NCBI GenBank assembly: GCA_043818555.1
Contig: JBDRFP010000002.1
Location: 16,774-80,773, forward strand
Reading direction: 5' to 3'
Length of the DNA stretch: 64,000 nt
Source of the DNA: a bacterium
Lineage (GTDB): Bacteria; Patescibacteriota; Patescibacteriia; UBA9934
Under the pieces are notes generated by a model, which worked only from the letters and a program-made list of their open reading frames with translations, had not been told where the DNA came from and ran no database searches. Within the stretch, counting starts at the first letter, position 1; every line of letters begins with the position of its first letter. Position numbers and translations under genes: made by a program. Shown in pieces: positions 5,521 through 61,097 of the stretch.

Positions 5521-5700
5521 ATTTTTAACCTCCTGAGGAGTTCCCACCCCTTAACCCTGAAGGTTTAACCCCTGGGGTTAAACGTTTAGCGTTAAACCCT
5601 GAGGGTTAAGAAGCCTAAACCGCCAAGGTTGGCCCACCCTACTCTTAATCAACGGCCAAAACCAGGGTTTAACCCTGAAGGTTTAATTTGGAGATAAATA
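5521..5700. repeat. Cluster of TTAACCC / GGGTTAA-type palindromic repeat units (TTAACCCTGAAGGTTTAA and variants) directly upstream of ligA
   Basis: Visible repeated units ttaaccctgaaggtttaacccctggggttaaacg...gttaaaccctgagggttaag...agggtttaaccctgaaggtttaa. Confidence 0.7.
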
Positions 5701-5760
5701 TTTTCAAAAATAAATCCCCGACGTGAATCGGGTACGGGCTGATCAAGAACGATCGCTGGC

Positions 5761-5892
5761 CTTTGTGGCCGATCGGGCAAAATGTGCAACATTTGTAAAT
5801 CGTGACAATTGTGTAAACTTAGCAAAGATCCTCTATTTTTATAAAATGAAGTGTTGTAGATTGTGGCCGATCGGGCAAAATGTGCAACACAT
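5761..5892. repeat. Two 29-bp direct repeats TTGTGGCCGATCGGGCAAAATGTGCAACA (palindromic CCGATCGG core) about 100 bp apart, flanking an AT-rich TATAAAAT segment. Candidate operator pair in the ligA upstream region.
   Basis: Identical 29-mers at about 5763-5791 and 5862-5890. Confidence 0.6.
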
Positions 5893-6029
5893 GCAAAATA
5901 AATCCCCCGAAGTTAATCAGGAATGTGCTAATCACGAATGATCGCTGAGCTTGGCGATACCAACGCGGTGGATCGCTTACATGTCCAACATTGTTGCCGA
6001 TCATATGTAATGTTGGACAACAATCGCAT

Positions 6030-6058
6030 TATAAAACCGCCCCATCAGGAGCGGTCAG
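6030..6058 (-). terminator. Rho-independent terminator of small paralog 1 (ACCGC-TCCTGATGGG-GCGGT followed by TTTATAAT on the minus strand)
   Basis: GC stem followed by a T-run immediately after the stop at 6067. Confidence 0.6.
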
Positions 6059-6066
6059 CAGCGCCT

Positions 6067-6369
6067 TTACGACGCCATACGAGATTGAGCGCGCTTGGCC
6101 CATTCGTCCAGGCAGTCCTCGGCAAGAGCCAAATACCTGCCTGCTTCAACATCGCGCTCAACGATAGTGACTGTCTCCGGCATGGTGTTCATAATCGCCT
6201 TGCGGCGAACCACAGTAAGAACACCGAGTCTGCTGCGGAACGCCGGGCTTATGAGAACCTTTGCGACTCGTCCGCCAACATTTGCATACAGGACGAGCGC
6301 TTTCCTATTCGCATTCTGTGCCTGCACCAGAGCGTAGTCAATGAATACGCATTTTGCTGAACTTTTCAT
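6067..6369 (-). CDS. Small conserved protein, tandem paralog 1 (100 aa; MKSSAKC...LDEWAKRAQSRMAS)
   Basis: Start moved to the internal ATG preceded by GGAGG. Paralogous over its full length to 6516..6818. Has its own sigma70-like promoter and terminator. Confidence 0.7.
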   Translation of the reverse strand: MKSSAKCVFIDYALVQAQNANRKALVLYANVGGRVAKVLISPAFRSRLGVLTVVRRKAIMNTMPETVTIVERDVEAGRYLALAEDCLDEWAKRAQSRMAS

Positions 6370-6394
6370 TTTTACCTCCAGTAAACAAGAGTTA

Positions 6395-6423
6395 TGTATA
6401 TTATGTTTTTTGAATTTTGTCAA
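6395..6423 (-). promoter_or_regulatory. Sigma70-type promoter of paralog 1 (-35 TTGACA, 17-nt spacer, -10 TATACA), followed by SD GGAGG
   Basis: Minus-strand reading is TTGACAaaattcaaaaaacataaTATACA...GGAGGtaaaaATG. Confidence 0.55.
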
Positions 6424-6451
6424 CCTTTATGGCCCGAGCTCGGTCAAGATT

Positions 6452-6481
6452 GCAAAAAAATCCCCCGAACTTAGTCGGGGG
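6452..6481 (-). terminator. Rho-independent terminator of paralog 2 (CCCCCGA-CTAAGT-TCGGGGG plus a T7 run)
   Basis: Perfect 7-bp GC stem followed by TTTTTTT on the gene strand, right after the stop at 6516. Confidence 0.75.
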
Positions 6482-6515
6482 ACGCTCCACTCATGAGGAC
6501 AGGTCAACGGCGCCT

Positions 6516-6818
6516 TTACGACGCCATGCGGGATCGGGTGCGTTCGGCCCACTCGTCCAGGCTCGCGCCCGAAAGCGAGTAATGGATGCCGCGCCCCATG
6601 TGCCGAGCAACTACGGTTACACTTTCAGGCATGGTGTCCGCAATCGCCTTGCGAACGGCTGCATCCAACTCGCCAATTCGATGCCGGAAAGCGCTGCCAA
6701 TATTCACCTTAGCAGCACACTCATGAATTTCTATGTGAAGCACGAGATCGTTGCCGCTTGATCCCTTTACGATTACGCGCTCGAAAGCGACCAAATGACA
6801 CTTTGCAGAACATTTCAT
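6516..6818 (-). CDS. Small conserved protein, tandem paralog 2 (100 aa; MKCSAKC...LDEWAERTRSRMAS)
   Basis: SD AAGGGGG 5 nt upstream of the ATG. About 40% identical to paralog 1, with shared blocks TMPE(T/S)VT(I/V)V and LDEWA.R..SRMAS. Family not recognised. A weak Asp23/Gls24-like pattern is noted but not asserted. Confidence 0.7.
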   Translation of the reverse strand: MKCSAKCHLVAFERVIVKGSSGNDLVLHIEIHECAAKVNIGSAFRHRIGELDAAVRKAIADTMPESVTVVARHMGRGIHYSLSGASLDEWAERTRSRMAS

Positions 6819-6827
6819 ATTGCCCCC

Positions 6828-6980
6828 TTACCGGCCGCTTCGCTTGCTGCCAGAAGGCAGGCTCGACCTTGCCCTTGCCCAGTCCTCCACGAACCCGCAG
6901 GTTCGTCTTGATGCATCGCGACACCTGCGAGCGCGCTCCTCGAGCACGCAGGAAGTCAGGTTTATCAGGATCTCGATCAT
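6828..6980 (-). CDS. Candidate upstream small ORF (50 aa, MIEILINLTSCVLEERARRCRDASRRTCGFVEDWARARSSLPSGSKRSGR), Arg-rich with 3 Cys
   Basis: Canonical SD AAGGAGG 8 nt before its ATG. Its TAA stop overlaps the SD of paralog 2. Lies inside the roughly 200-nt GC-rich leader downstream of a TTGACA-N17-TATCTT promoter. Confidence 0.4.
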   Translation of the reverse strand: MIEILINLTSCVLEERARRCRDASRRTCGFVEDWARARSSLPSGSKRSGR

Positions 6981-10412: not shown

Positions 10413-10862
10413 TCACAACCCAAGAGCTTCATCGATGGCTTTGTTTACCATTGCGTCCGCCTCCTTGTTAAACTCACGTCTCACATGAGAAAATCTGATT
10501 TCGCGAAACTTTTGTTTAAAGTTGTGGATCTCCAAAAAATATTCTGCGAGCTTGGCGTTTTTCACCCTATACTCGCCGTTTAATTGTTTGACTGCCAATT
10601 CTGAATCGAGCCTGACATCGATTGACTCAATCCCAAGCTCTTTTGCTTTTTTAAGACCATAAACGATTGCGGAGTACTCAGCCTGATTGTTGGTTGCAGT
10701 GCCAAGGTAAACTCCCTGTTCGAAAATTTTCGGTCCAAGACTTCCGTCCGCATCAAGTTCAAATAAAACAAAACCTGCCGCAGCCGGCCCGGGATTCCCC
10801 CGCGCTCCTCCGTCAGCGAACAATCGTGCTCGTTTTAAGCCCATACGGATATATTGTATCAC
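10413..10862 (-). CDS. rnhA: Ribonuclease HI
   Basis: Catalytic N-terminal motif LFADGGARGNPGPAAAGFVL and the RNase H fold. The start may be the internal Met (MGLKRA). Confidence 0.85.
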   Translation of the reverse strand: MIQYIRMGLKRARLFADGGARGNPGPAAAGFVLFELDADGSLGPKIFEQGVYLGTATNNQAEYSAIVYGLKKAKELGIESIDVRLDSELAVKQLNGEYRVKNAKLAEYFLEIHNFKQKFREIRFSHVRREFNKEADAMVNKAIDEALGL

Positions 10863-10948: not shown

Positions 10949-13009
10949 TTACGATGAACGAATTCTGTAGTACTCGTCGCGGTGGACGAGATACTCCTCA
11001 AGCATGAACCCTACGAGGATTTCGTCGTCGTAGAGCCAGCGGAAAACTTCTTCCTCCGGATTCCGCTCGAACATACGCTGGAGCTCCTTATTCGTTACGC
11101 CAAGCAGTGAACAGTACCTACTGCGCTCGGCGCTTTCCGACACATCCTCCCAGCGCGGGTAGAACTCAAAGTCGGTTGACTCCGTGTCAGCGTACGCTTC
11201 TCTGCGCCCCTCAACCTCAATCGAGAGGTAAAACAGATGCAGAAGGTCCTTCCCAATGCGGCGAACAAACGGGAGGTACTCGTCCTTTGTGATGCCAGCC
11301 CTTGGACGATCTGTAGGGCTGCGGATCTCTGCAAACAGCATATCCCGCAACGCCTGCCTGTATTTCAAATCACCTGCAATCCTGCGAGCATCGGCCTTTG
11401 CAATCCTTGCAAACGAATCCACAACGGTCGATCGCCACAGGTTGATCTCCATGTCCTCGTGGCTTTCGATAAGCCCGGGCAGGCCCTCCACGAGCGCGCT
11501 CGCGGGCAGCAGGCTGGCGTAGCACGCCATAAACTCGGGCGTAATCTCTACAAGGCCGCTGCGGAGTAGACCCTTCATTGAGCGCTCGTCCAACCCTCTC
11601 TCGAAAATCATTCGGATCACTTCTTCGCGGTATGAAGGACAGGCTTTGGGCAAAAAGTCGACGACCATGCGCAAAGGCAGCACTTCTGCTTCAATAACCG
11701 ACAACCAATCTTCAGGGTTCAACATAGCCCAGTCAATGGCTCCGGCAACCGTATTTCGGAGGTATTTTTCCCGCTCGGACTCTCTCAGCCCTTCCGGGAA
11801 GTCAAACTCCCCGCCCCTTGCCGCCATCAGCGCATTTTCCGAGTTGAGCATCGCCTGGTCGTCTGTCAGAGCCAGAAAGACGATTTCAAGAGTGTGCTCG
11901 TCGATTGTATCCGTTCTTATTTTGCAAAGACTTCGGATTCCGTCCTCAATGGTTCTATGCACGATCACGAGCTCAGAATCACTAGGATCCCAGCCACGGC
12001 CGATCAGGCGTCCTACAACTCGCCTGGCCAGATCGTTCCCGGGTTCCTCCAGACGAATTTGCTTCATGGACTCCTGAAACTCTTCTAGGTCCACAAAGTC
12101 CTTGTCCGGTCCGTTGATGACTGCGAGAAGAATCTGCGCATTGATCCATGTACGCTCAATGGACTGCGTTTGCTGTCCGAACGCGTTCTCGGGGATTTCC
12201 TCAAGCTTCTTTGGCAGCCTACTGAAAGCTTCTGCCATCATAGTGTAGCGCAGCATCGTTTCACGGGCGTTTACAATTCTTGTAACACTGTTCGGATTTC
12301 CCCTTCCGAAAATGTCCAACTTTGACGCACCCGAACTCAGAAAGTCCAGCTTTCCGCCCTGCGCAGAGAGCATCGGCATTGGCGTGGCGCGTACGAAATG
12401 AGTGTACGAATTTTCGAAATCTTCGCAGAATCGCCCAATTGCTTCACCAAGCGCGCGAGCTTCCTTCACCATCCGCCCAAAGAACTGGGCGACAGGTGGA
12501 ACAAGCACATTACTCAGAAGATCAACGCCCTGCGCGTCCTGCCTGGAGATTTCTAGCCGCGCGATGATGTCATTTCCAAGCCCCAGGTCAGCCCAGGCTT
12601 GCTTGCTAAGCTTCATTCCAGGCTGTATGCCAATCTTGAGAGCATGATTCACAGCATGAACCACTTCGCGCTCAAATGCGTCTGCGGCCTCCCCCATGTC
12701 CTCGAACGAAAGGGCCAGACCGGCATTTACCAACGAATCGGTCTTTTGGCAAATGCGCTCAAAGTCAGATTCGCTCTCAATGTTCAGCCCCATAGCTTTC
12801 CCAATCACCTCAAGCAACTTGTACATACCGCGAATCACGGCTTCGCGAACAGGAAACTCGCTCCAAGTTACCTGGCCGCACATAGTTGTCGTGACCGGAG
12901 CGTAGCGGCGAATCAGCTCCGCATACAGCTCGGTAAACGGCGCACCGCTCGATTCCTCGATCACCCGCGCCACAGGCACGAGCGCCGTGGTATATTCTTC
13001 GTGAGTCAT
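10949..13009 (-). CDS. Hypothetical large protein (686 aa), high GC
   Basis: Long ORF with GC near 58-60% against a background near 42%. No recognisable catalytic motif. Predicted mainly alpha-helical. Confidence 0.6.
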   Translation of the reverse strand: MTHEEYTTALVPVARVIEESSGAPFTELYAELIRRYAPVTTTMCGQVTWSEFPVREAVIRGMYKLLEVIGKAMGLNIESESDFERICQKTDSLVNAGLALSFEDMGEAADAFEREVVHAVNHALKIGIQPGMKLSKQAWADLGLGNDIIARLEISRQDAQGVDLLSNVLVPPVAQFFGRMVKEARALGEAIGRFCEDFENSYTHFVRATPMPMLSAQGGKLDFLSSGASKLDIFGRGNPNSVTRIVNARETMLRYTMMAEAFSRLPKKLEEIPENAFGQQTQSIERTWINAQILLAVINGPDKDFVDLEEFQESMKQIRLEEPGNDLARRVVGRLIGRGWDPSDSELVIVHRTIEDGIRSLCKIRTDTIDEHTLEIVFLALTDDQAMLNSENALMAARGGEFDFPEGLRESEREKYLRNTVAGAIDWAMLNPEDWLSVIEAEVLPLRMVVDFLPKACPSYREEVIRMIFERGLDERSMKGLLRSGLVEITPEFMACYASLLPASALVEGLPGLIESHEDMEINLWRSTVVDSFARIAKADARRIAGDLKYRQALRDMLFAEIRSPTDRPRAGITKDEYLPFVRRIGKDLLHLFYLSIEVEGRREAYADTESTDFEFYPRWEDVSESAERSRYCSLLGVTNKELQRMFERNPEEEVFRWLYDDEILVGFMLEEYLVHRDEYYRIRSS

Positions 13010-13159
13010 CTTGTCTCCAATTGTTGTGCGAGCTTAGCCCGCGATGTAATGAACTTTCTTGTCGATTGCTGAAGCAATGACAATGACAATTACTATAACT
13101 TTGGATGAAGATTGATTTTCATTCCTTGGTCATGGTCACTGTCATAGTCATAGTTTCGT

Positions 13160-13214
13160 GTTAAGAAACGACCCGGCCCCGTCCATCTTGCAATGGATAG
13201 AGCCGGGCAAGTTT
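13160..13214 (-). terminator. Rho-independent terminator after the 326-aa acidic protein gene (CCCGGC...nested TCCAT-TGCAAG-ATGGA...GCCGGG followed by TCGTTTCTT)
   Basis: GC-rich stem with a nested stem directly downstream of the stop at 13215. Confidence 0.45.
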
Positions 13215-14195
13215 TCAGATCAGGTCGTCATCGTCGTCCGCGGAAGCCTGTTCTGCCTCCTGGAACGATGTGACTTCCTGCCGCACTCGCTCGCGCGCCG
13301 CGCGCAGATCCTTCTGCGCGGCGCGGAGCATGTCATCCGTGGTGAGGATCATATCCCCCTCCTCAACGAACTCCAGATATTCCTCCTGGAGTTCTTCGTT
13401 GAGCCCTACAAGCTCTAACAACTCCGTGATTCGATGGTCGAAGAAGTCGCCGTCGATGGCTTCGGCATCCCCTTCCTCATCTTCCTCATCTTCATCTTCC
13501 TCGTCCTCATCCTCGGAAATCCCCTGGATCTCGTGGAATATGGCCGAGAATAGGTAAGCTTTCAAGCTCACGCCCTGAGCGACTACCTCTTCGAGAAGCT
13601 CGCGGAAGTCGTCTCGCTCCGAGAGCTTGCGCCCCCATGCGAGAATTCGCGCCATGATGGACGCATCCAGATCCGCGAACGGGATCATGTCATCGATACC
13701 GGAATATTCACCTTCGCCGTCGCCTTCGGATTCACCGGGATCGCCTTCGCTCCCAAGGGCATCGAATGCCGTAGAAGCAGCTGCTGCTGCGTCCAGGTCC
13801 CGACCATCGGCCTCGTCCTTGAGCTCCTTTCGGAGCGCGGCAAGCACTGCTTCCTTCGAAGCTACAACGAACATCGAGCTCGGCAGGTCGCCCTGCAAAA
13901 GCAGTAGGTCTCCCAGATGCACTGTGGCGATGTGGTCGCTGAGCAACTCATGCGCTTGCTCGTTCGTGTGCTCACCCACCACCACCTCGACCACTCGGGC
14001 GCGTTCCCCAACGAGGAGCCCGCCCTTGCCAATCGACAACGGCTTGCACAGCATGAGCGCCGCCTTCGGGTCTGCCCTGACCGCTGCCTTGGCGACCGGG
14101 TCAAACTCGTCGCGGAACAATCTGGCCGCGTCGCGCCCGCCTCTTTGAAGGGCGTTCACAGCTTCAGATACCTGAAGATCGAATTTCTTGCTCAT
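13215..14195 (-). CDS. Hypothetical highly acidic protein (326 aa) with an Asp/Glu run (DEDEEDEDEEDEEGD)
   Basis: ORF in the same GC-rich block, about 65-70% GC. Contains acidic low-complexity tracts. Confidence 0.6.
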   Translation of the reverse strand: MSKKFDLQVSEAVNALQRGGRDAARLFRDEFDPVAKAAVRADPKAALMLCKPLSIGKGGLLVGERARVVEVVVGEHTNEQAHELLSDHIATVHLGDLLLLQGDLPSSMFVVASKEAVLAALRKELKDEADGRDLDAAAAASTAFDALGSEGDPGESEGDGEGEYSGIDDMIPFADLDASIMARILAWGRKLSERDDFRELLEEVVAQGVSLKAYLFSAIFHEIQGISEDEDEEDEDEEDEEGDAEAIDGDFFDHRITELLELVGLNEELQEEYLEFVEEGDMILTTDDMLRAAQKDLRAARERVRQEVTSFQEAEQASADDDDDLI

Positions 14196-14203
14196 CTCAC
14201 CTC

Positions 14204-14722
14204 CTATCGGTAAATGCTGAGTTTGGTGTTTCGCGCCATGGCTAGGATGTCGTGGAGCTCGGCCAATAGCGCCTTACCAACCGCTAGTCCTGCCAAGGCA
14301 TTCAAGAATGCGCTCACATTGGCGTTGTTAGGCTTTACCCGAAACCCTTCGCCCAAATCAACTGCCACGCAGCAACTCAGGAAGACCGCGAGATCTGGGC
14401 CCGAAACTGAGTTCGCGAGCCTGAGCGTCATATCGAGCACATCCTCGCCCGCTTCGGGCGTAAGGTATGCATCGAGCGTCTGCCGTCTCCGGTCACGCTC
14501 GTAATCCACATAGGCCTCGAACACATCCCTGAACTCGGAGAACAAGTTCTCCTGAGAGTTCGCTGTCAAGTCCGGATCGAACTCATGAAACAGGTCGTCC
14601 GGATGTTCCTCGTGGTCGTCCGCGTACGGATCGAGCAAGCGCTCGTCCTCTGCAGTCAAGTCACCGAGCCTCATCTTGAATCCACTTGTGCTTGCGGGCC
14701 GTACGATCCTTCTTTTTCCCAT
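14204..14722 (-). CDS. Hypothetical acidic protein (172 aa)
   Basis: Same strand and composition as its neighbours. Separated from the 326-aa gene by 8 nt. Confidence 0.55.
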   Translation of the reverse strand: MGKRRIVRPASTSGFKMRLGDLTAEDERLLDPYADDHEEHPDDLFHEFDPDLTANSQENLFSEFRDVFEAYVDYERDRRRQTLDAYLTPEAGEDVLDMTLRLANSVSGPDLAVFLSCCVAVDLGEGFRVKPNNANVSAFLNALAGLAVGKALLAELHDILAMARNTKLSIYR

Positions 14723-14843
14723 GATTTCTCCTGATTTTATTGGAAAGAACTGTGTCGCAATGACAATTCAGACTAACAAAAATCGGGCGATTTGTCAAGT
14801 AAAAAACCTGCTCCACGACTCTTGGTCGAAAAAGCAGGTTGCT

Positions 14844-15362
14844 TTAGCGCAAAAACACGAATAAATTGCCCGATTCTGCGCCATTCATACCCTCAGGGCC
14901 AACGCCGGAGATCTTTCCCCATAGAGAACGGCCTGGCATATTCGGAAGGGCTATTTCCACTCGATCGAGCGGCAACGGCAATGGCGAATTGAGTTCAATC
15001 GTAGCATGTTTTTCCGAGGGCCCCACCCATGCCACCACCATCACATCCGTACCGGGCGCCGGCTCCAGCCTGGCCTTGTCGCGCATGATTTCTCGCACGC
15101 GCACGCCGGCAGGGTCTGCCTTGAACAAGTCACCAATTGTTTCAACATTTGTCCCGCGATCATAGTTGCGACGCCGAACAAGGTCGGTCAAAATGCCGTA
15201 CGCGTATCTCGCACGCTCAAAACGCTCGGCAGATGCCAGGTCATCTCCGGCAATATCCGGATGAGATTCACGGGCAATGGCTCGAAACGCCCTCTTAATT
15301 TCCCTCTTGGACGCGTCCCGGCTAACGCCAAGAACATCGTACAAACTCTCGTGAGCCATCTT
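14844..15362 (-). CDS. J-domain protein (DnaJ-like co-chaperone domain, about 172 aa) with an uncharacterised C-terminal domain
   Basis: J domain with the HPD motif (MAHESLYDVLGVSRDASKREIKRAFRAIARESHPDIAG). Start placed at the internal Met. The ORF track extends further to 15533. Confidence 0.7.
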   Translation of the reverse strand, partial: KMAHESLYDVLGVSRDASKREIKRAFRAIARESHPDIAGDDLASAERFERARYAYGILTDLVRRRNYDRGTNVETIGDLFKADPAGVRVREIMRDKARLEPAPGTDVMVVAWVGPSEKHATIELNSPLPLPLDRVEIALPNMPGRSLWGKISGVGPEGMNGAESGNLFVFLR

Positions 15363-15626
15363 GACCTCCATGGTTAAAATGAACGAGGAAAAAGAGTAAC
15401 ACAGGCATGACCCATTGTCAAGATTCACGCTCAATTTGACAACATTACCGTTTTTGTTTATCATCCTAGTAAATTCGAATTTCCTACGAATATGATTGCG
15501 AATAAAACAACGCTTACCCGATTGCATCATCATGCAGAACCCTCTTTCAAGAAGAGATCTGTTTGATTTTCGACTACTTTAGAAAACAGACCAGGCCCCT
15601 TCTTGAAAAAGAGGGGTCTTTATTTT

Positions 15627-16478
15627 ATGGAAAAAATCATGCAAATAATCACTAAATACGACGCAAAAGGCAAACAGAATGAATCCTATGCCCAATTGCG
15701 TCAACGCGTCGCCTCAATCGTATCGCAAGGCGAACGGTTAGTGTTGCTTACGTTTACCTGCTCTACAATTAACGCTCAGGAGATGTTTAGTCGTACGCCA
15801 TGGAAGTATGTCGCTCTAGATCCACAAGGCAATAATCTTTCAAACGACATTCAAAGGCTGACACGAATCTTCACCGAAATAAAAACCATTTACCCCAACA
15901 CATCGCTGAAAGTATTAATTGGTAACACGGATCCATACTACATTTATACAAGGCAATTCGATGAACTCGCTTTTGACAAGGCAAGGCTGTGGTATGAGTT
16001 CGAGAAGCGATGGAACATATACAGGTTAAGACTTGAGCAGTGGATCAAAGAGCAGAATCCCGAATGCGACTGCGAAGTAGTCAGTTGGTACGAATTTGAA
16101 AAAGATATCGAAAAAAAAGGACGAAATTTCGAACAAGAATTTGAAGACGCATTATTTGCGATCGATAATTGCGCTAGGCGGTCGGACTTAGACTGGGAGC
16201 TCAGGCAACTTAGTGCCCAGTTTGCTCCCGGCAAATATTTTGACGGCCTTGAACGGCCCGGCGATGATATGCTGCGCGATTGGGTAAGGCGAAAATTTGC
16301 CCAATACGCTGTCCAGGCTTTATGGATTCGGCAATACATGCCAAGCGCAATCCTAATCCAAAATGAAAAACCAAGCGACCTTCGAACATCCATGTACCAA
16401 CCGCTTGTGCGTGAGCAGCTAAATGAAGATTTTCCGGTTTTATATTTTTGTGGGGTTGACAATGAAGGATACCGGTAA
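15627..16478 (+). CDS. Hypothetical protein (283 aa), paralog A of a tandem pair
   Basis: Start moved from the track TTG to the first ATG. The C-terminal half is similar to the downstream ORF (ILIQNEKPSDLRTSMYQ versus ILAQSEKPYDRKDRMYQ). Confidence 0.6.
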   Translation: MEKIMQIITKYDAKGKQNESYAQLRQRVASIVSQGERLVLLTFTCSTINAQEMFSRTPWKYVALDPQGNNLSNDIQRLTRIFTEIKTIYPNTSLKVLIGNTDPYYIYTRQFDELAFDKARLWYEFEKRWNIYRLRLEQWIKEQNPECDCEVVSWYEFEKDIEKKGRNFEQEFEDALFAIDNCARRSDLDWELRQLSAQFAPGKYFDGLERPGDDMLRDWVRRKFAQYAVQALWIRQYMPSAILIQNEKPSDLRTSMYQPLVREQLNEDFPVLYFCGVDNEGYR

Positions 16479-16537
16479 ACAGCTCACCTCCTGAATCATG
16501 CGGCCTTGGCCAAAGGCCTCATGTCAAGGAGGTGAAA

Positions 16538-17326
16538 ATGTGTCCTAGGATTCTCCACAATGGGACGGTACAGACCGCCAACCGCGAACTACGTTCGTGT
16601 GTACATAAAATGACGCCAGCGGACCAAGCAGTTATCGGCATCCTGGAAAAATTCGAGAACGGTTCTGTCGGCAGCTTGTCGATGGTAAATCCGACAGGGG
16701 TGTACAAGCGTATTCAATGTCGACCAATCCAACTTTTAGGATTCTCTTGCCTGGCAACATATTCGGGAAGAGAGGAGCTAATCCCGGAGATCAATCAAAC
16801 CTACTTTTTCCGCAATTCCAAATACGTCAATCGGATCGAACGATTACGCGCGGATTTACTGCGGACAGGGATCGATTTAGAAGTCGAGATCATCCTGCCC
16901 GACACCGAGCCTATCAGAACCTGGGGTTGGGGAACGGATCAGGAAGAACTTACATACTACTGCGAGTGTATGCGTGATGACTTCCAATTGTCTGATGGCT
17001 GGAAAGTAACGATCTGGTCGGAAATCGAAGCTCAACTTGAAAAGCCTATCGACTTTTCGACCTGGGTTGTATGGGCAGGGTCAAAGCCTTTGCTTATCTC
17101 ACAAGTCGTGGCGCACCTTCGACAATTCAAATCAATTAAGTTCCCAAAAGGTGTAGAGTGGTCTGCGCTTCGTCAAGTTGCGGCTTATGCCATGGAAGGA
17201 TTTGTGCTCGAGCAGCTGCGCTCTGAGTCAATACTGGCGCAATCCGAAAAGCCTTACGATCGCAAGGATCGTATGTACCAGTTGTGTCGAAATACTCCGC
17301 TACCAATCATTCACCCATTTATTTAG
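16538..17326 (+). CDS. Hypothetical protein (262 aa), paralog B of the tandem pair
   Basis: SD AAGGAGGTG upstream of the ATG. Similar to the 15627..16478 product. Confidence 0.6.
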   Translation: MCPRILHNGTVQTANRELRSCVHKMTPADQAVIGILEKFENGSVGSLSMVNPTGVYKRIQCRPIQLLGFSCLATYSGREELIPEINQTYFFRNSKYVNRIERLRADLLRTGIDLEVEIILPDTEPIRTWGWGTDQEELTYYCECMRDDFQLSDGWKVTIWSEIEAQLEKPIDFSTWVVWAGSKPLLISQVVAHLRQFKSIKFPKGVEWSALRQVAAYAMEGFVLEQLRSESILAQSEKPYDRKDRMYQLCRNTPLPIIHPFI

Positions 17327-17359
17327 GAGGGGACATGGGACTTCAATGGAGGACGCTAC

Positions 17360-17392
17360 ACCGTAGCGTGGGCGGAATCGCGTGTCACGAAG
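17360..17392 (+). terminator. Rho-independent terminator after the paralog pair (TGTCACGA-AG-TCGTGACA followed by TTTTCC). A second hairpin with a T-run lies at about 17410-17450.
   Basis: 8-bp stem followed by a T-run. Confidence 0.5.
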
Positions 17393-17474
17393 TCGTGACA
17401 TTTTCCTCCGATAGCTTAGGCTGTCGGGGGATTTTTCTTTTGAGTCGAAGGTCAGAATGTCAAAAGTCTAACCT

Positions 17475-19208
17475 CTAACACCCAGCCCCTAGCTCCTCTG
17501 AGATACGCAGGTCTACCACGTGGCCCTGCAAACTTCGATTGCCGTTCCACTCGTTCACATTGATCTCGTAGACCACATCGATCATGTCTCCCATGTTCAA
17601 CTTCTTAGCCCATTTACCAAAGCCAAATGCAATCATATTCCAAACAGACCCTTCAGGAGGATTCACACTTAGCTTTAAATGCTTACCCTCCTTCCCAACA
17701 GCGTTAGCCGTCATCACTTGAAGCCCGCGGGCGACAAAAAGAGGTTTGGGGTTGCCCTTTCCAAACGGAGCAAATCTCTGCAATGTTTCATAAAGTTCCC
17801 AGTCGATCTTGCCGAGCGGCAACTCGGCATCGATCTCAATTGCCGACTGCGGCTCGTTAATTCCAAAAAACTCATCAGCAAACTCGGTGACTTTTTGACG
17901 AAATTGCTCGACATGATCAAGCGTCGCCAGCGATAGCCCGCATGCCTGAGGATGGCCACCGGCTTTGATAAAAATATCACCGCACGAGTGCATTGCCTCC
18001 ACCAAATGGAGTCCACCCGCACTACGACCCGACCCAACAAACTGATTTTCAATCTTGGTAAGCGCAAAAGCTGGCACGCCAAACTCACTCACCAACTTCC
18101 CTGCTACCAAACCAACTATCCCCGGCGCCCACACCTCGCTCCACACAATGTATACTGAGCACTTTTGATCCTCCACAACCATTTCACGCGCTTCGGCATA
18201 CGCGACTTCGGTCGCTTTTTGGCGTTCACGATTTAAGATTTCGAGCTCAGCGGCGCGGTCGGCAGCCTCACGATCATCAGTCGCGATTAAGGTCTTAAAC
18301 GCAATTTCCGCCGACGACATGCGCCCAGCTGCGTTGAGGCGTGGCCCAATCCTGAATCCAATCGCCTGCGTATCAATTTCGCCCAACTTAGTTCGTGAAG
18401 ACTCGATGATCTTTTTTAACCCTGGCCGCCGAGTCTTATTGAGTACCACAAGCCCAAACTTTTCAAGTGCCCGATTCTCACCTGTGATCGGCATAACATC
18501 GGTAACTGTTGCGATTGCGACCAAATCGAGATACCACTTTTCGTGTCCGTCCGGCAGGTCAGCGCCGCGTTTTCGAGCTTCACGAATTAACGCTGTCGCA
18601 AACTTAAACGCTACGCCTGTGCCGCAAAGATCTTTATTTGGATACGCGTCCTCGAGCAGCGGATGGATAATCGTCGCGCGTGCAGGCAGATCACTAGCGA
18701 GCTGATGGTGGTCGCAAATAATTACATCCATGCCAAGCTCGTGCGCGCGATTCAGCTCACTGGCGTTCGATGTACCGCAGTCGACTGTTATGATTAAATT
18801 GACACCATCCCGATGCAATTTATCGATCGTATGCATTACCACGCCATAACCGTCGCGCTCTCGATCAGGCAGGTAAGCTTCGACATCGAGTGCCGAACCG
18901 CGTAGCCCGACTCCCGGTGTCGAGCTAGCCACGTCATGCAACACATTCCAAAGCAAAGCCGATCCGCAAACGCCATCAGCGTCGTAATCACCATGAACAA
19001 CTATTTTATCACCTCGCTCTAAAGCCAAAAAAACGCGATCTACCGCGTCCTGCATTTTTCTGAATAGCGACGGGTCAAGCACATCCTCCCACCTTGGATG
19101 TAAGAAATCCTCTCTGTCCTCCGTCTTAATCCGACGGTTGAGCAAAAGCTGCTCAACAACATCGTCCGACCTTCGCTCAGCTACTTTCCATTGTTTATTC
19201 ATGCACAA
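17475..19208 (-). CDS. recJ: Single-stranded-DNA-specific exonuclease RecJ
   Basis: 577 aa. DHH motifs (HGDYDADGVCGSALL, ITVDCGT, DHHQ) and a DHHA1 C-terminal region. Confidence 0.9.
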   Translation of the reverse strand: MCMNKQWKVAERRSDDVVEQLLLNRRIKTEDREDFLHPRWEDVLDPSLFRKMQDAVDRVFLALERGDKIVVHGDYDADGVCGSALLWNVLHDVASSTPGVGLRGSALDVEAYLPDRERDGYGVVMHTIDKLHRDGVNLIITVDCGTSNASELNRAHELGMDVIICDHHQLASDLPARATIIHPLLEDAYPNKDLCGTGVAFKFATALIREARKRGADLPDGHEKWYLDLVAIATVTDVMPITGENRALEKFGLVVLNKTRRPGLKKIIESSRTKLGEIDTQAIGFRIGPRLNAAGRMSSAEIAFKTLIATDDREAADRAAELEILNRERQKATEVAYAEAREMVVEDQKCSVYIVWSEVWAPGIVGLVAGKLVSEFGVPAFALTKIENQFVGSGRSAGGLHLVEAMHSCGDIFIKAGGHPQACGLSLATLDHVEQFRQKVTEFADEFFGINEPQSAIEIDAELPLGKIDWELYETLQRFAPFGKGNPKPLFVARGLQVMTANAVGKEGKHLKLSVNPPEGSVWNMIAFGFGKWAKKLNMGDMIDVVYEINVNEWNGNRSLQGHVVDLRISEELGAGC

Positions 19209-22000: not shown

Positions 22001-22071
22001 AGGCGTGAGTAAGTAGATAGTAGTAAGTAGTCAAAGGGTACAATAAATTGGCGATTCTGTCGAGATGTTGG

Positions 22072-22116
22072 CAGGTTCAACCCTGAAGGTTGCTGCAACC
22101 TTCAGGGTTGAACCTG
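22072..22116. repeat. Perfect palindrome with 20-bp arms, CAGGTTCAACCCTGAAGGTT-GCTGC-AACCTTCAGGGTTGAACCTG, in the divergent lepA / 22181 intergenic region
   Basis: Member of the TTAACCCTGAAGGTT repeat family. Candidate operator or REP-like hairpin. Confidence 0.8.
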
Positions 22117-22180
22117 CACGCTTGACCAAATCGACCAAAACTGCTAACCTTGCCTCAGCGCCCTAACAAAGGAGACTTAA

Positions 22181-22711
22181 ATGTCGCACGAACCATTGAC
22201 TCTCGAAGCCGCCCGCGAGCGAGGACTGTACAAAATGCTCGCGTCTTCAATACGAGCGCTACAGGTAGGCAAGCATGAACTCAACCTAGGCTGGGAGACG
22301 GCCTACAATTTGGAAAGACGAGGTATCGTCTGCATCTTCCAACTGTGTGAGCTTACCCTAGATCAGTCATCCCCTATCTGCCATGCGCTAGATAGTGTGG
22401 AGATCGAATCAGCTCTAAAAAAAATTAGGCTAGGATACGGCATGAGCTTCAGCGACGAGCTCAAGCACGCTCTACTCAATGAGCCGACCCTGCTGGAGGG
22501 ACTAGACAGGGTGATCGAAGTCCTGACAGCTGAAGGAACGGCTAAGCGAACCGAACTCAATGCGCTCGACCGCGACCTAGGAGCGCTCAAGATGATCCAA
22601 CGGGAACTGACTGGCGAGGAAGAGCCAGAATCTATCGATAGAGCCAGCGATTCTGATCCGTCGCTCGATGACCTTCCGCAGGACATCTGCCCGAGAGCAA
22701 ATGGATCCTAG
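22181..22711 (+). CDS. Hypothetical protein (176 aa)
   Basis: SD AAAGGAGA upstream of the ATG. Bracketed by two copies of the AACCCTGAAGGTT palindrome. Confidence 0.6.
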   Translation: MSHEPLTLEAARERGLYKMLASSIRALQVGKHELNLGWETAYNLERRGIVCIFQLCELTLDQSSPICHALDSVEIESALKKIRLGYGMSFSDELKHALLNEPTLLEGLDRVIEVLTAEGTAKRTELNALDRDLGALKMIQRELTGEEEPESIDRASDSDPSLDDLPQDICPRANGS

Positions 22712-22752
22712 GGACAAACAACCCGCTTGCGCGATCGCAGGCGGGTTTCTTA

Positions 22753-22787
22753 TTAACCCTGAAGGTTGCTGCAACCTTCAGGGTTAA
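22753..22787. repeat. Palindrome TTAACCCTGAAGGTT-GCTGC-AACCTTCAGGGTTAA between convergent genes. Probable bidirectional terminator hairpin.
   Basis: 15-bp perfect arms around the same GCTGC loop as the 22072 copy. Confidence 0.75.
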
Positions 22788-29386: not shown

Positions 29387-29416
29387 AACCCTAAAGGTTT
29401 CTGAACCTTTAGGGTT
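29387..29416. repeat. Variant palindrome AACCCTAAAGGTT-TCTG-AACCTTTAGGGTT downstream of cysS. Terminator-like.
   Basis: 13-bp arms. Variant of the same family with TAAAGG in place of TGAAGG. Confidence 0.7.
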
Positions 29417-46477: not shown

Positions 46478-46612
46478 TTAACCCTCAGGGTTAAACCTTC
46501 AGGGTTAAACCTTCAGGGTTAAGAGTGTAATCTTGCTAAAATTAGCCAAGCCCATGCTTAAATGGTGGTCAAAATGTATTGTTAACCTTCAGGGTTAAAC
46601 CTTCAGGGTTAA
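46478..46612. repeat. Array of AACCTTCAGGGTTAA units (three tandem copies, a 53-bp unique insert, then two tandem copies) downstream of the HD-domain gene
   Basis: ccctcagggttaaaccttcagggttaaaccttcagggttaag...gttaaccttcagggttaaaccttcagggttaaaa. Confidence 0.8.
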
Positions 46613-59835: not shown

Positions 59836-59859
59836 CGAAGCAAAGCCGAGGGACAATTT

Positions 59860-59889
59860 AACCTTCAAGGTTCAGAAACCTTGAAGGTT
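59860..59889. repeat. Variant palindrome AACCTTCAAGGTT-CAGA-AACCTTGAAGGTT downstream of 59937..60284
   Basis: 13-bp arms. Member of the TTAACCCTGAAGGTT family. Confidence 0.7.
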
Positions 59890-59936
59890 AAGATACATTC
59901 GCTACAGACAGCCTCGTAGAAATGCTGAGGTAATAT

Positions 59937-61080: not shown

Positions 61081-61097
61081 TTAACCCCAGGGGTTAA
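61081..61097. repeat. Small palindrome TTAACCCC-A-GGGGTTAA
   Basis: Same core as the TTAACCC/GGGTTAA family. Confidence 0.5.

What the first reader, a model, noticed from the sequence alone, without database searches (positions are those of the whole stretch)
22072..22787. A TTAACCCTGAAGGTT palindromic repeat family brackets a hypothetical gene and recurs at gene ends
Hairpin-forming units built on AACCCTGAAGGTT / AACCTTCAGGGTT occur at 5521-5700 (cluster), 22072-22116 (20-bp perfect arms in the divergent lepA/22181 promoter region), 22753-22787, 29387-29416 (variant), 46478-46612 (five units with a unique 53-bp insert), 59860-59889 (variant) and 61081-61097. The 176-aa hypothetical gene 22181..22711 is exactly bracketed by two copies with identical GCTGC loops. 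The family behaves like REP/BIME elements: bidirectional terminators, and possibly binding sites for a REP-associated transposase-like protein.
Basis: seen in the sequence. Interest (0 to 1): 0.5.

Follow-up and report, generated by a model that had tools for sequence, protein, structure and literature searches.

The report
REP-type hairpin repeats in a CPR genome
A short palindromic DNA repeat scattered between the genes of an ultra-small (Candidatus Uhrbacteria-like) bacterium belongs to a hairpin family that in many other phyla sits beside, and even inside, the gene of a REP-associated tyrosine transposase, so it is most likely a known kind of miniature mobile element in an unusual host, not a set of terminators.

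Summary
The skeleton AACC-N5-GGTT occurs 19 times in the window against 0.77 in shuffles. All 19 copies lie in seven intergenic loci, as single 13-17-nt palindromic units, 14-nt tandem arrays or inverted doublets that fold into 13-23-bp hairpins.

The window comes from an unclassified MAG whose LepA is closest to Candidatus Uhrbacteria (CPR). About 80 kb from five syntenic relatives holds no unit of the family, so the family is lineage-specific.

The same double-palindrome hairpin, including the window's exact arms, occurs in Bacteroidota, Beggiatoaceae, Desulfobacterales and other phyla. In 15 of 173 sampled loci it flanks, or lies in frame inside, a roughly 205-aa REP-associated tyrosine transposase (RAYT). 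That RAYT best fits subclass 2.4 / group 4, for which in-gene REPs are already published.

The REP reading is therefore supported by association. No RAYT lies in these 64 kb, and the rest of the genome could not be read.

The terminator reading is not supported. The hairpins have no T tail, canonical terminators sit next to them, and one copy lies in a divergent region.

The 176-aa orphan gene and its two identical hairpins form a 783-bp insertion between mnmA and lepA, which are 4-12 bp apart in three relatives.

Verdict: a new member of a known kind, of moderate interest.

The parts
5551..5685 (.). Cluster A: five units (5553-5565, 5567-5579, 5595-5607, a degenerate one at 5618-5630, 5671-5683), partly in 14-nt tandem. 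It lies 46 nt upstream of the ligA start (5504, - strand) and downstream of a - strand terminator at 5732-5717.
   Evidence: (family D2)
22071..22117 (.). Hairpin B: a perfect palindrome with 23-nt arms, core AACCCTGAAGGTT-GCTGC-AACCTTCAGGGTT, DNA fold -27.6 kcal/mol (z -9.1). It lies between the lepA start (22000, -) and the orphan gene start (22181, +).
   Evidence: (I3)
22181..22711 (+). A 176-aa orphan ORF preceded by an AGGAG Shine-Dalgarno sequence. It has no Pfam or PHROG match and no homologue other than itself. It is antisense to the mnmA-lepA pair and is the cargo of the 783-bp insertion.
22720..22747 (+). A canonical intrinsic-terminator hairpin (12 pairs, GCGATCGC at the centre, tail TCTTATT). 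It does not belong to the repeat family and sits between the orphan gene and hairpin C.
22753..22787 (.). Hairpin C: a perfect palindrome with 17-nt arms and the same 31-nt core as B. Its terminal TTAA supplies the TAA stop codon of mnmA (22784-22786, - strand).
   Evidence: (I13)
29387..29416 (.). Hairpin D: variant arms AACCCTAAAGGTT / AACCTTTAGGGTT, changed on both arms so that pairing is kept. It lies 2 nt after the cysS stop and 28 nt before the next start.
   Evidence: (I21)
46478..46522 (.). Array E, left part: three tandem units with a 14-nt period.
46582..46612 (.). Array E, right part: two tandem units that abut the HD-domain gene's own terminator (46634-46616, - strand).
59858..59891 (.). 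Hairpin F: arms AACCTTCAAGGTT / AACCTTGAAGGTT, the arm sequence that dominates in other phyla. It lies 45 nt after the stop of the 115-aa gene.
   Evidence: (I15)
61081..61097 (.). Single unit G: TTAACCCCAGGGGTTAA, between the 98-aa gene and the histidine-phosphatase gene.

Best explanation
The units form a family of REP-type (repetitive extragenic palindrome) sequences, and the inverted doublets resemble REPINs. They are the non-autonomous DNA partners of a REP-associated tyrosine (HUH/Y1) transposase. That transposase best fits the clade published as TnpAY1 subclass 2.4 / RAYT group 4.

Inferred mechanism, taken from the E. coli TnpA-REP / IS200-IS605 paradigm:
- On single-stranded DNA the unit or doublet folds into a hairpin.
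- The RAYT recognises, cleaves and rejoins that hairpin.
- This seeds copies into tolerated non-coding spots, often right after stop codons.

The family spread recently in this Uhrbacteria-like lineage. It is absent from relatives, and copies B and C are identical. The 783-bp block hairpin C - terminator - orphan gene - hairpin B is an insertion into an otherwise tight mnmA-lepA junction.

Shown: the repeat statistics, the intergenic placement, the hairpin stability, the compensatory arm variants, the RAYT association of the same hairpin elsewhere, absence from relatives, and the insertion.

Inferred: that a RAYT of this clade exists or existed in this genome and mobilises these copies, and any effect on RNA.
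For: In the window:
- The family is real and strictly intergenic.
- The doublets fold far better than shuffles, with z from -6 to -9.
- The four doublets have three different arm sequences, yet every arm pair is 13/13 complementary.

In other genomes:
- A truncated genome scan gave 119 loci with the same double palindrome in Bacteroidota, Ca. Parabeggiatoa and Halobeggiatoa, Desulfobacterales, Ignavibacteria, Cloacimonadota, Akkermansia, Leptolinea and Roizmanbacteria. Of the hairpins there, 131 of 147 lie outside ORFs of at least 150 aa, where 78% of the sequence is covered by such ORFs.
- Seven of those loci hold a roughly 205-aa protein flanked by or containing the hairpin.
- All seven proteins match NCBIfam NF047646 'REP-associated tyrosine transposase' (best E 1.1e-18, below the curated cut-off). 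Their profile matches PDB 4ER8 TnpArep at E 5.6e-7. JGI names homologues 'REP element-mobilizing transposase RayT'.
- The exact window arms gave 54 metagenome loci, 8 of them with this RAYT adjacent or around the hairpin. One example is a roughly 10-copy hairpin array directly upstream of a RAYT.
- Of the 120 best homologues, 73 carry the hairpin-encoded peptide (NLQGFxNLEGL, or NPEGFxNLQGL, which corresponds to the window's arms) just after the HUH motif.

Relatives: L124, L125, L126, L181 and L182 (about 80 kb, LepA 77-85% identical) hold no unit of the family; the only skeleton match there, in L126, looks like chance.
Against: - No RAYT or any Y1 transposase is encoded in the 64 kb (Pfam scans; local profile search). 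The other 42 kb of the contig and the rest of the MAG could not be read.
- The window's copies differ from the RAYT-linked copies elsewhere. Their flanks are TTAACC...GGTTAA rather than AAACC...GGTTT, their centre is GCTGC, and they form 14-nt tandem arrays. The TTAA-flanked form had 0 hits in the metagenome collection.
- The canonical 5' GT[AG]G guide tetranucleotide of described REPs is absent.
- The RAYT proteins score below the NCBIfam cut-off and barely touch Pfam PF01797. The subclass assignment rests on motifs and the insertion position, not on a phylogeny.
- No paper in the searched library reports a RAYT in CPR bacteria.
Confidence: 0.68

Rival explanations
1. The hairpins are host-selected RNA elements, either transcription terminators or 3' mRNA-stabilising stem-loops. 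On this view their spread needs no dedicated transposase.
For: Five of the seven loci lie 0-45 nt downstream of a stop codon. The stems are very stable. Known REPs can act in this way (general knowledge; abstract of PMC3733652).
Against: No family hairpin has a T tail, and none is called by the terminator scan. Canonical terminators lie immediately beside copies C and E. Copy B lies in a divergent region, and cluster A lies upstream of ligA. This reading does not explain why the same sequence sits beside and inside RAYT genes in other phyla.
Confidence: 0.12
2. Hairpins B and C are the two ends of a small non-autonomous transposable or integrative cassette that carries the orphan gene. It could be a PATE-like derivative of an IS200/IS605-type element, or a circle integrated by recombination at a resident hairpin. 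The other copies would then be solo ends.
For: B and C share an identical 31-nt core that no other copy has. The 783 bp they bound are an insertion relative to L126 and two JGI contigs, where mnmA and lepA are 4-12 bp apart. In L073 a RAYT gene is bracketed in the same way, with a hairpin about 10 nt from each end.
Against: The junction is a hot spot in any case. L181 and L182 carry unrelated antisense orphan ORFs there without any hairpin. With 7 of 61 gaps occupied, two neighbouring occupied gaps are not improbable; I estimate about 0.7 such pairs expected by chance. 'Same orientation' rests on a single central base. There is no target duplication, no second copy of the cassette, and no homologue of the cargo.
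Confidence: 0.12
3. The 13-17-nt palindrome is an operator for a dimeric DNA-binding protein, that is, a regulon motif.
For: The architecture is a 6-N5-6 palindrome. Copies occur upstream of lepA, the orphan gene and ligA.
Against: Most copies lie at 3' ends or overlap stop codons. They occur as long perfect hairpins and tandem arrays, with compensatory changes that keep arm pairing rather than a fixed sequence. They are absent from syntenic promoters of relatives. The hairpin is associated with RAYT genes elsewhere.
Confidence: 0.03

Closest known systems
REP sequences associated with TnpAY1 subclass 2.4 (RAYT group 4), described by Quentin et al. 2018 (PMC6006769) and Bertels et al. 2017 (PMC5581495)
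   Same: The RAYTs found next to this hairpin have HuH NHFH, Y motif YIHNNP, a variable insertion just after the HuH motif, and REP copies in frame inside the gene as well as flanking it. They are scattered over many phyla. All of this matches the published subclass 2.4 description.
   Different: The published subclass 2.4 REPs were found with a model that requires a 5' GT[AG]G foot ('canonical long' and 'double foot' types). This hairpin has no such foot and is built from two copies of a 13-nt unit that is itself palindromic. None of the six 13-mer arm variants I searched for appears in any paper searched, other than as primers. In this window no RAYT was seen.
REPINs and RAYT groups 2 and 3 of Pseudomonas and Enterobacteria (Bertels and Rainey 2011)
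   Same: Two inverted palindromic units form a longer hairpin. The copies are extragenic and many per genome, with a single-copy transposase gene flanked by them.
   Different: The spacer between units is only 1-5 nt, against tens of nt. Each unit is only 13-17 nt. The core sequence is shared across phyla, whereas REPs are described as species-specific (PMC6006769). The host is an ultra-small CPR genome.
E. coli BIMEs (clusters of REPs)
   Same: The units cluster in intergenic arrays (5551-5685; 46478-46612).
   Different: The arrays are head-to-tail with a 14-nt period, not alternating Y/Z REPs with defined linkers. Binding of IHF, gyrase or Pol I is unknown.
IS200/IS605 ends and their non-autonomous derivatives (PATEs)
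   Same: Subterminal hairpins are recognised by a Y1 transposase, and a hairpin lies on each side of a cargo gene (B - orphan gene - C).
   Different: There is no tnpA or tnpB in the window. The hairpins are perfect palindromes, so left and right ends cannot be told apart. Only one such unit is seen.

Membership tests
REP / REPIN (RAYT-associated) | Short (about 20-40 nt) palindromic sequence able to form a stable hairpin as single-stranded DNA | tested here: met
   The arms are 13-23 nt and 100% complementary. DNA folds range from -12.9 to -27.6 kcal/mol, with z from -6 to -9. Single units are weaker (-6 kcal/mol, z -2.2).
REP / REPIN (RAYT-associated) | Repeated many times and confined to extragenic space | tested here: met
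   There are 19 units in 7 loci, all intergenic, against 0.77 expected. The genome-wide count could not be tested.
REP / REPIN (RAYT-associated) | A cognate RAYT gene in the same genome, flanked by the repeats | not testable with these tools
   No RAYT lies in the 64 kb.
REP / REPIN (RAYT-associated) | The same repeat sequence is physically associated with RAYT genes | tested here: met
   This was tested in other organisms only. RAYT is present in 7 of 119 genome loci and 8 of 54 metagenome loci; the metagenome set uses the window's exact arms. The RAYT is flanked by or contains the hairpin.
REP / REPIN (RAYT-associated) | A conserved 5' GT[AG]G (or CGTC) tetranucleotide at the foot of the hairpin | tested here: not met
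   The flanks in the window are TT/AA, TC/GA or GT/GT. No GTAG or GTGG lies at the foot. This feature defines the described GTAG superfamily rather than every RAYT partner.
REP / REPIN (RAYT-associated) | Doublets of inverted units forming a longer hairpin (REPIN) | tested here: met
   Four of the seven loci are inverted doublets with a 4-5-nt centre.
TnpAY1 subclass 2.4 / RAYT group 4 (for the associated protein, not encoded in the window) | HuH NH[IFV]H, Y motif YIxNNP, a variable insertion between beta3 and alphaC, and REPs inserted in frame | tested here: met
   N56-H57-x-H59 and Y136...N140-P141 are invariant. The insertion peptide follows the HuH motif directly. The published W motif 'WQ' is LF[EQ] here, and no phylogeny was made, so the assignment is provisional.
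Intrinsic (Rho-independent) terminator | A G+C-rich stem-loop followed directly by a T-rich tail, downstream of a gene | tested here: not met
   None of the family hairpins is called. Adjacent non-family hairpins are called.
BIME | Alternating inverted REP types with defined linker motifs | tested here: not met
   The arrays are head-to-tail with a 14-nt period.
CRISPR array | Repeats of 24-48 nt separated by unique spacers of similar length, with cas genes nearby | tested here: not met
   The period is 14 nt with no spacers, and no cas domains appear in the Pfam scans.

The most novel reading that the evidence does not exclude
A RAYT-REP system of the subclass-2.4 type has recently invaded a streamlined CPR (Uhrbacteria-like) genome. 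There, paired REP hairpins do more than replicate themselves: they delimit and move a complete expression cassette (promoter-like region, Shine-Dalgarno sequence, orphan ORF, terminator) into the mnmA-lepA operon. On this reading REP pairs act as vehicles for orphan genes at a recurrent insertion hot spot. Because the REP core is carried in frame inside the transposase gene, it travels with the gene across phyla, which would explain why one REP sequence is shared by distant phyla.
Probability: 0.1. Interest if true: 0.7.

Novelty: new member of a known kind. Interest (0 to 1): 0.4.

Why it matters
REP/RAYT systems have been studied almost only in Proteobacteria, and REPs are described as species-specific.

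Three points here go beyond that picture:
- One hairpin core (AACCYTSARGGTT, twice) recurs from Bacteroidota to Beggiatoaceae to a CPR genome.
- It is tied to a RAYT clade that carries the same hairpin in its own reading frame.
- It has expanded in a lineage of ultra-small, gene-dense bacteria whose sampled relatives lack it.

If the cognate RAYT is found in this MAG, the system would give a dated, recent invasion in which to study how such elements colonise a compact genome. It would also show how they reshape operons, as at the mnmA-lepA split.

For annotation, the practical message is that these hairpins should not be labelled terminators.

Tried and rejected
- Cyanobacterial origin (HIP1-like GCGATCGC seen): rejected. 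There are only 4 HIP1 sites, and the closest LepA sequences are from Uhrbacteria and Patescibacteria.
- Exact-protein look-ups of the source contig: the MAG is not in that collection.
- Rfam: only two tRNAs at gathering score. A weak mir-3119 chance hit falls on cluster A.
- Literature search for six of the 13-mer arm variants: only unrelated primers.
- TTAA-flanked form in metagenomes: 0 hits.
- Viral contigs: 4 hits, not pursued.
- Homology of the orphan protein: no homologue besides itself (a word-prefiltered search), no Pfam or PHROG match, and no similarity to the RAYT profile.
- Relation of the orphan protein to the orphan ORFs at the same junction in L181 and L182: none found.
- AlphaFold single-sequence model of the orphan protein: pLDDT 52.8, too poor for a fold search.
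- Enrichment at convergent gene ends: not significant.
- CRISPR, operator, DNA-uptake-sequence and MITE-with-TTAA-duplication readings: considered and set aside. The period, the placement at 3' ends, the compensatory arm changes and the RAYT association all argue against them.

Full report
**1. The observation**

The sequence at 22072-22787 is as described.
- AACCCTGAAGGTT with at most one mismatch occurs 17 times, against 0.05 expected.
- The skeleton AACC-N5-GGTT occurs 19 times, against 0.77 in shuffles.
- TTAACCYTSARGGTTAA with up to three mismatches gives 17 hits, against 0.35 expected.

Each 13-mer is itself a near-palindrome (TTAACC-YYNRR-GGTTAA). The units occur in three forms:
- Single units: 61081-61097.
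- Head-to-tail arrays with a 14-nt period: 5551-5685; 46478-46522 plus 46582-46612.
- Inverted doublets with a 4-5-nt centre: 22071-22117, 22753-22787, 29387-29416, 59858-59891.

As single-stranded DNA the doublets fold at -12.9 to -27.6 kcal/mol, with z from -6 to -9 against shuffles. The four doublets use three different arm sequences (CTGAA/TTCAG twice, CTAAA/TTTAG, TTCAA/TTGAA). Every arm pair is still 13/13 complementary, so pairing is kept while the sequence varies.

**2. Where the window comes from**

- The orphan protein, MnmA and LepA are each the only members of their 90% clusters. They belong to an NCBI MAG labelled only 'bacterium' (locus tag ABIA47, contig of 105,802 bp).
- The closest named LepA sequences (77-85% identity) are from Candidatus Uhrbacteria and the Patescibacteria group.
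- The gene content fits: PilM, PilD, T4SS-coupling-like ATPases, many orphans, and nearly all genes on one strand.
- Gene order is syntenic with Uhrbacteria contigs L126, L181 and L182 and with two JGI contigs.

**3. Context of the copies**

All seven loci are intergenic, in a window that is 14.5% non-coding by my gene list (P about 1.3e-6).

By flanking gene orientation:
- Four loci lie between co-directional genes.
- Two lie between convergent genes. One of these is hairpin C, whose TTAA provides the mnmA stop codon.
- One (hairpin B) lies between the divergent starts of lepA and the orphan gene.

Hairpin D sits 2 nt after the cysS stop.

Convergent gaps are not significantly favoured: 2 of 5 against 5 of 56, p about 0.10 by hand from the counts.

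No family hairpin is called by the terminator scan, because none has a T tail. Canonical terminators lie directly beside copies C (22720-22747) and E (46634-46616).

**4. The same hairpin elsewhere**

The hits are in:
- Many Bacteroidota (Chryseobacterium, Mariniphaga, Draconibacterium, Ekhidna and others).
- Candidatus Parabeggiatoa and Halobeggiatoa.
- Desulfobacterales.
- Ignavibacteria, Cloacimonadota, Akkermansia, Leptolinea and a Roizmanbacteria MAG.

About 0.15 chance matches were expected by my estimate. The dominant form is AAACCTTCAAGGTTT-NNN-AAACCTTGAAGGTTT, the same arms as the window's copy F.

Of the hairpins there, 131 of 147 lie outside ORFs of at least 150 aa, although 78% of that sequence is covered by such ORFs.

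**5. The associated protein**

I clustered the ORFs next to the hairpins. One recurrent family of about 205 aa appeared in seven loci.

Its identity as a RAYT rests on:
- All seven proteins match NCBIfam NF047646 'REP-associated tyrosine transposase' (best E 1.1e-18, below the curated cut-off).
- Their profile matches E. coli TnpArep (PDB 4ER8) at E 5.6e-7, across the YIxxNP region.
- Pfam Y1_Tnp is touched only weakly.
- JGI calls homologues 'REP element-mobilizing transposase RayT'.

Its relation to the hairpin:
- In L073 the gene is bracketed by two hairpins, about 10 nt from each end.
- In L016 a hairpin with exactly the window's arms lies just upstream.
- In five of the seven loci the hairpin lies in frame inside the gene, right after the HUH motif, and encodes NLQGFxNLEGL.
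- Of the 120 best homologues, 73 carry such a peptide. Variants include NPEGFxNLQGL, which corresponds to the window's arms, and NLTGFENLSGL.

A metagenome scan with the window's exact arms gave 54 loci, and 8 of them have this RAYT adjacent to or around the hairpin. One is a roughly 10-copy array of a 151-bp unit, each copy holding the hairpin, directly upstream of the gene.

Together that is 15 RAYT genes in about 1.1 Mb of sampled DNA, all touching the hairpin. My estimate of the chance expectation is well under one.

**6. What is already known**

Quentin et al. 2018 (PMC6006769) describe TnpAY1 subclass 2.4, equal to Bertels' RAYT group 4, as follows:
- HuH NH[IFV]H and Y motif YIxNNP.
- A variable insertion between beta3 and alphaC that contains short DNA repeats.
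- Distribution in Cyanobacteria, Bacteroidetes and various other phyla.

Bertels et al. 2017 (PMC5581495) report group 4 in 61 species of 17 classes.

The proteins found here fit that description: NHFH, YIHNNP, and the insertion right after the HuH motif. The RAYT clade and its in-gene REPs are therefore known.

I did not find the following in the literature:
- This particular hairpin core. None of the six 13-mer arm variants I searched for occurs in any paper searched, other than as primers. The published REP detection required a GT[AG]G foot, which this hairpin lacks.
- Its conservation across phyla. REPs are described there as species-specific.
- Any RAYT/REP report for CPR bacteria. This is absence of evidence only.

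**7. Is this window's family part of that system?**

For:
- The arm sequences are identical to RAYT-linked copies elsewhere.
- The doublet architecture is the same.
- The copies are strictly extragenic, and the arm changes are compensatory.

Against, or open:
- No Y1 transposase lies in these 64 kb, and the rest of the MAG was out of reach.
- The local copies have TTAA flanks, a GCTGC centre and 14-nt tandem arrays, all rare elsewhere. The TTAA-flanked form had 0 metagenome hits.

I put 0.68 on the REP/RAYT explanation.

**8. Recent, lineage-specific spread and the bracketed gene**

About 80 kb from five relatives (L124, L125, L126, L181, L182) holds no unit of the family; the one skeleton match, in L126, looks like chance.

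In L126 and in two JGI contigs, mnmA and lepA lie on the same strand 4-12 bp apart. In the window they are separated by 783 bp: hairpin C, a terminator, the antisense 176-aa orphan gene and hairpin B.

B and C share a 31-nt core that no other copy has. This suggests one event, either a cassette bounded by REPs or integration at a resident REP. Three facts weaken that idea:
- The junction is a hot spot that holds unrelated antisense orphan ORFs, without hairpins, in L181 and L182.
- Two neighbouring occupied gaps are not improbable by chance.
- 'Same orientation' depends on one central base.

I keep the cassette idea as a rival and as the novel case, at about 0.1.

The orphan protein has no homologue, no domain match, no similarity to the RAYT profile, and only a poor structure model.

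**9. Verdict**

- The REP-like, transposase-linked reading is supported by association, though not by a cognate gene in hand.
- The terminator reading is not supported.

This is a new member of a known kind. Three features are unusual: the CPR host, a REP core shared across phyla, and a REP-bounded orphan gene that splits an operon.

Noticed in passing
window 5700-6900: A tandem duplication of about 449 bp (6043-6113 vs 6492-6562 at 82% identity; 6159-6204 vs 6608-6653 at 76%). It holds two paralogous small - strand ORFs (6067-6423 and 6516-6818, ending ...DEWAKRAQSRMAS and ...DEWAERTRSRMAS). The motif AAATAAATCCCCCGAAnTTAnTCnGG occurs three times (5707, 5896, 6454); the copies at 5707 and 5896 coincide with - strand terminator-like sites in the scan, and 6454 was not scanned. 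A 37-nt repeat TTGTGGCCGATCGGGCAAAATGTGCAACA lies at 5763 and 5861. The 1.67-kb gap between ligA and pilD is only 14-470 bp in relatives. There is no Rfam match.
   Followed up: partly
window 10949-17474: About 6.5 kb of mostly orphan genes (686, 326, 172, 291 and 264 aa, plus a 229-aa DnaJ-domain protein) lies between RNase H (10413-10862) and recJ (17475-19208). These two genes are adjacent in relatives L126, L181 and L182, so this is a lineage-specific insertion. No family hairpin lies at its edges.
   Followed up: partly
window 22001-22783; L181 7276-7730; L182 9089-10000: The mnmA-lepA junction is a recurrent insertion hot spot in Uhrbacteria. It is 4-12 bp long in three contigs. In L181, L182 and the window it is filled by mutually unrelated antisense orphan ORFs (97 aa; 163 + 84 aa; 176 aa).
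   Followed up: yes
L016 5996-6619, L048 4688-5305, L053 3043-3654, L076 4673-5296, L086 544-1167; proteins P0004-P0123: RAYT genes of this clade carry their own REP hairpin in frame just after the HUH motif (NLQGFxNLEGL and compensatory variants). Some have tandem expansions: P0095, P0038, and P0103 at 276 aa. In-gene REPs are published for subclass 2.4. The sharing of one hairpin core across phyla seems not to be spelled out in the literature I could search.
   Followed up: partly
L156 5409-6650 (same in L134); L130, L137, L141, L029, L050, L065, L071: Regular arrays of longer repeat units (81-260 bp period), each holding one hairpin. In L156 and L134 the array lies directly upstream of a RAYT gene.
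   Followed up: partly
L004, L044, L049, L055, L110 and other Ca. Parabeggiatoa loci: In Parabeggiatoa the hairpin has conserved flanks (cAGTTAGA-hairpin-TTGCCCTA) and forms a typical high-copy REP. About 40 of the 119 sampled loci come from this one MAG. The flank contains TAACTGA-like heptamers.
   Followed up: no
window 22720-22747: The orphan gene's terminator hairpin has GCGATCGC (the HIP1 octamer known from cyanobacteria) at its centre. The octamer occurs only 4 times in the window.
   Followed up: no
window 53874-56828: A single 984-aa ORF combines SecD and SecF domains with a PpiC-type rotamase domain (residues 251-360). This is an unusual fusion.
   Followed up: no
L124 1-5423: In the closest relative (LepA 85% identical), lepA is preceded by a SMODS / SLATT_4 gene pair (CBASS-like defence), a LexA-like repressor and an Eco57I-type methylase, instead of mnmA.
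   Followed up: no
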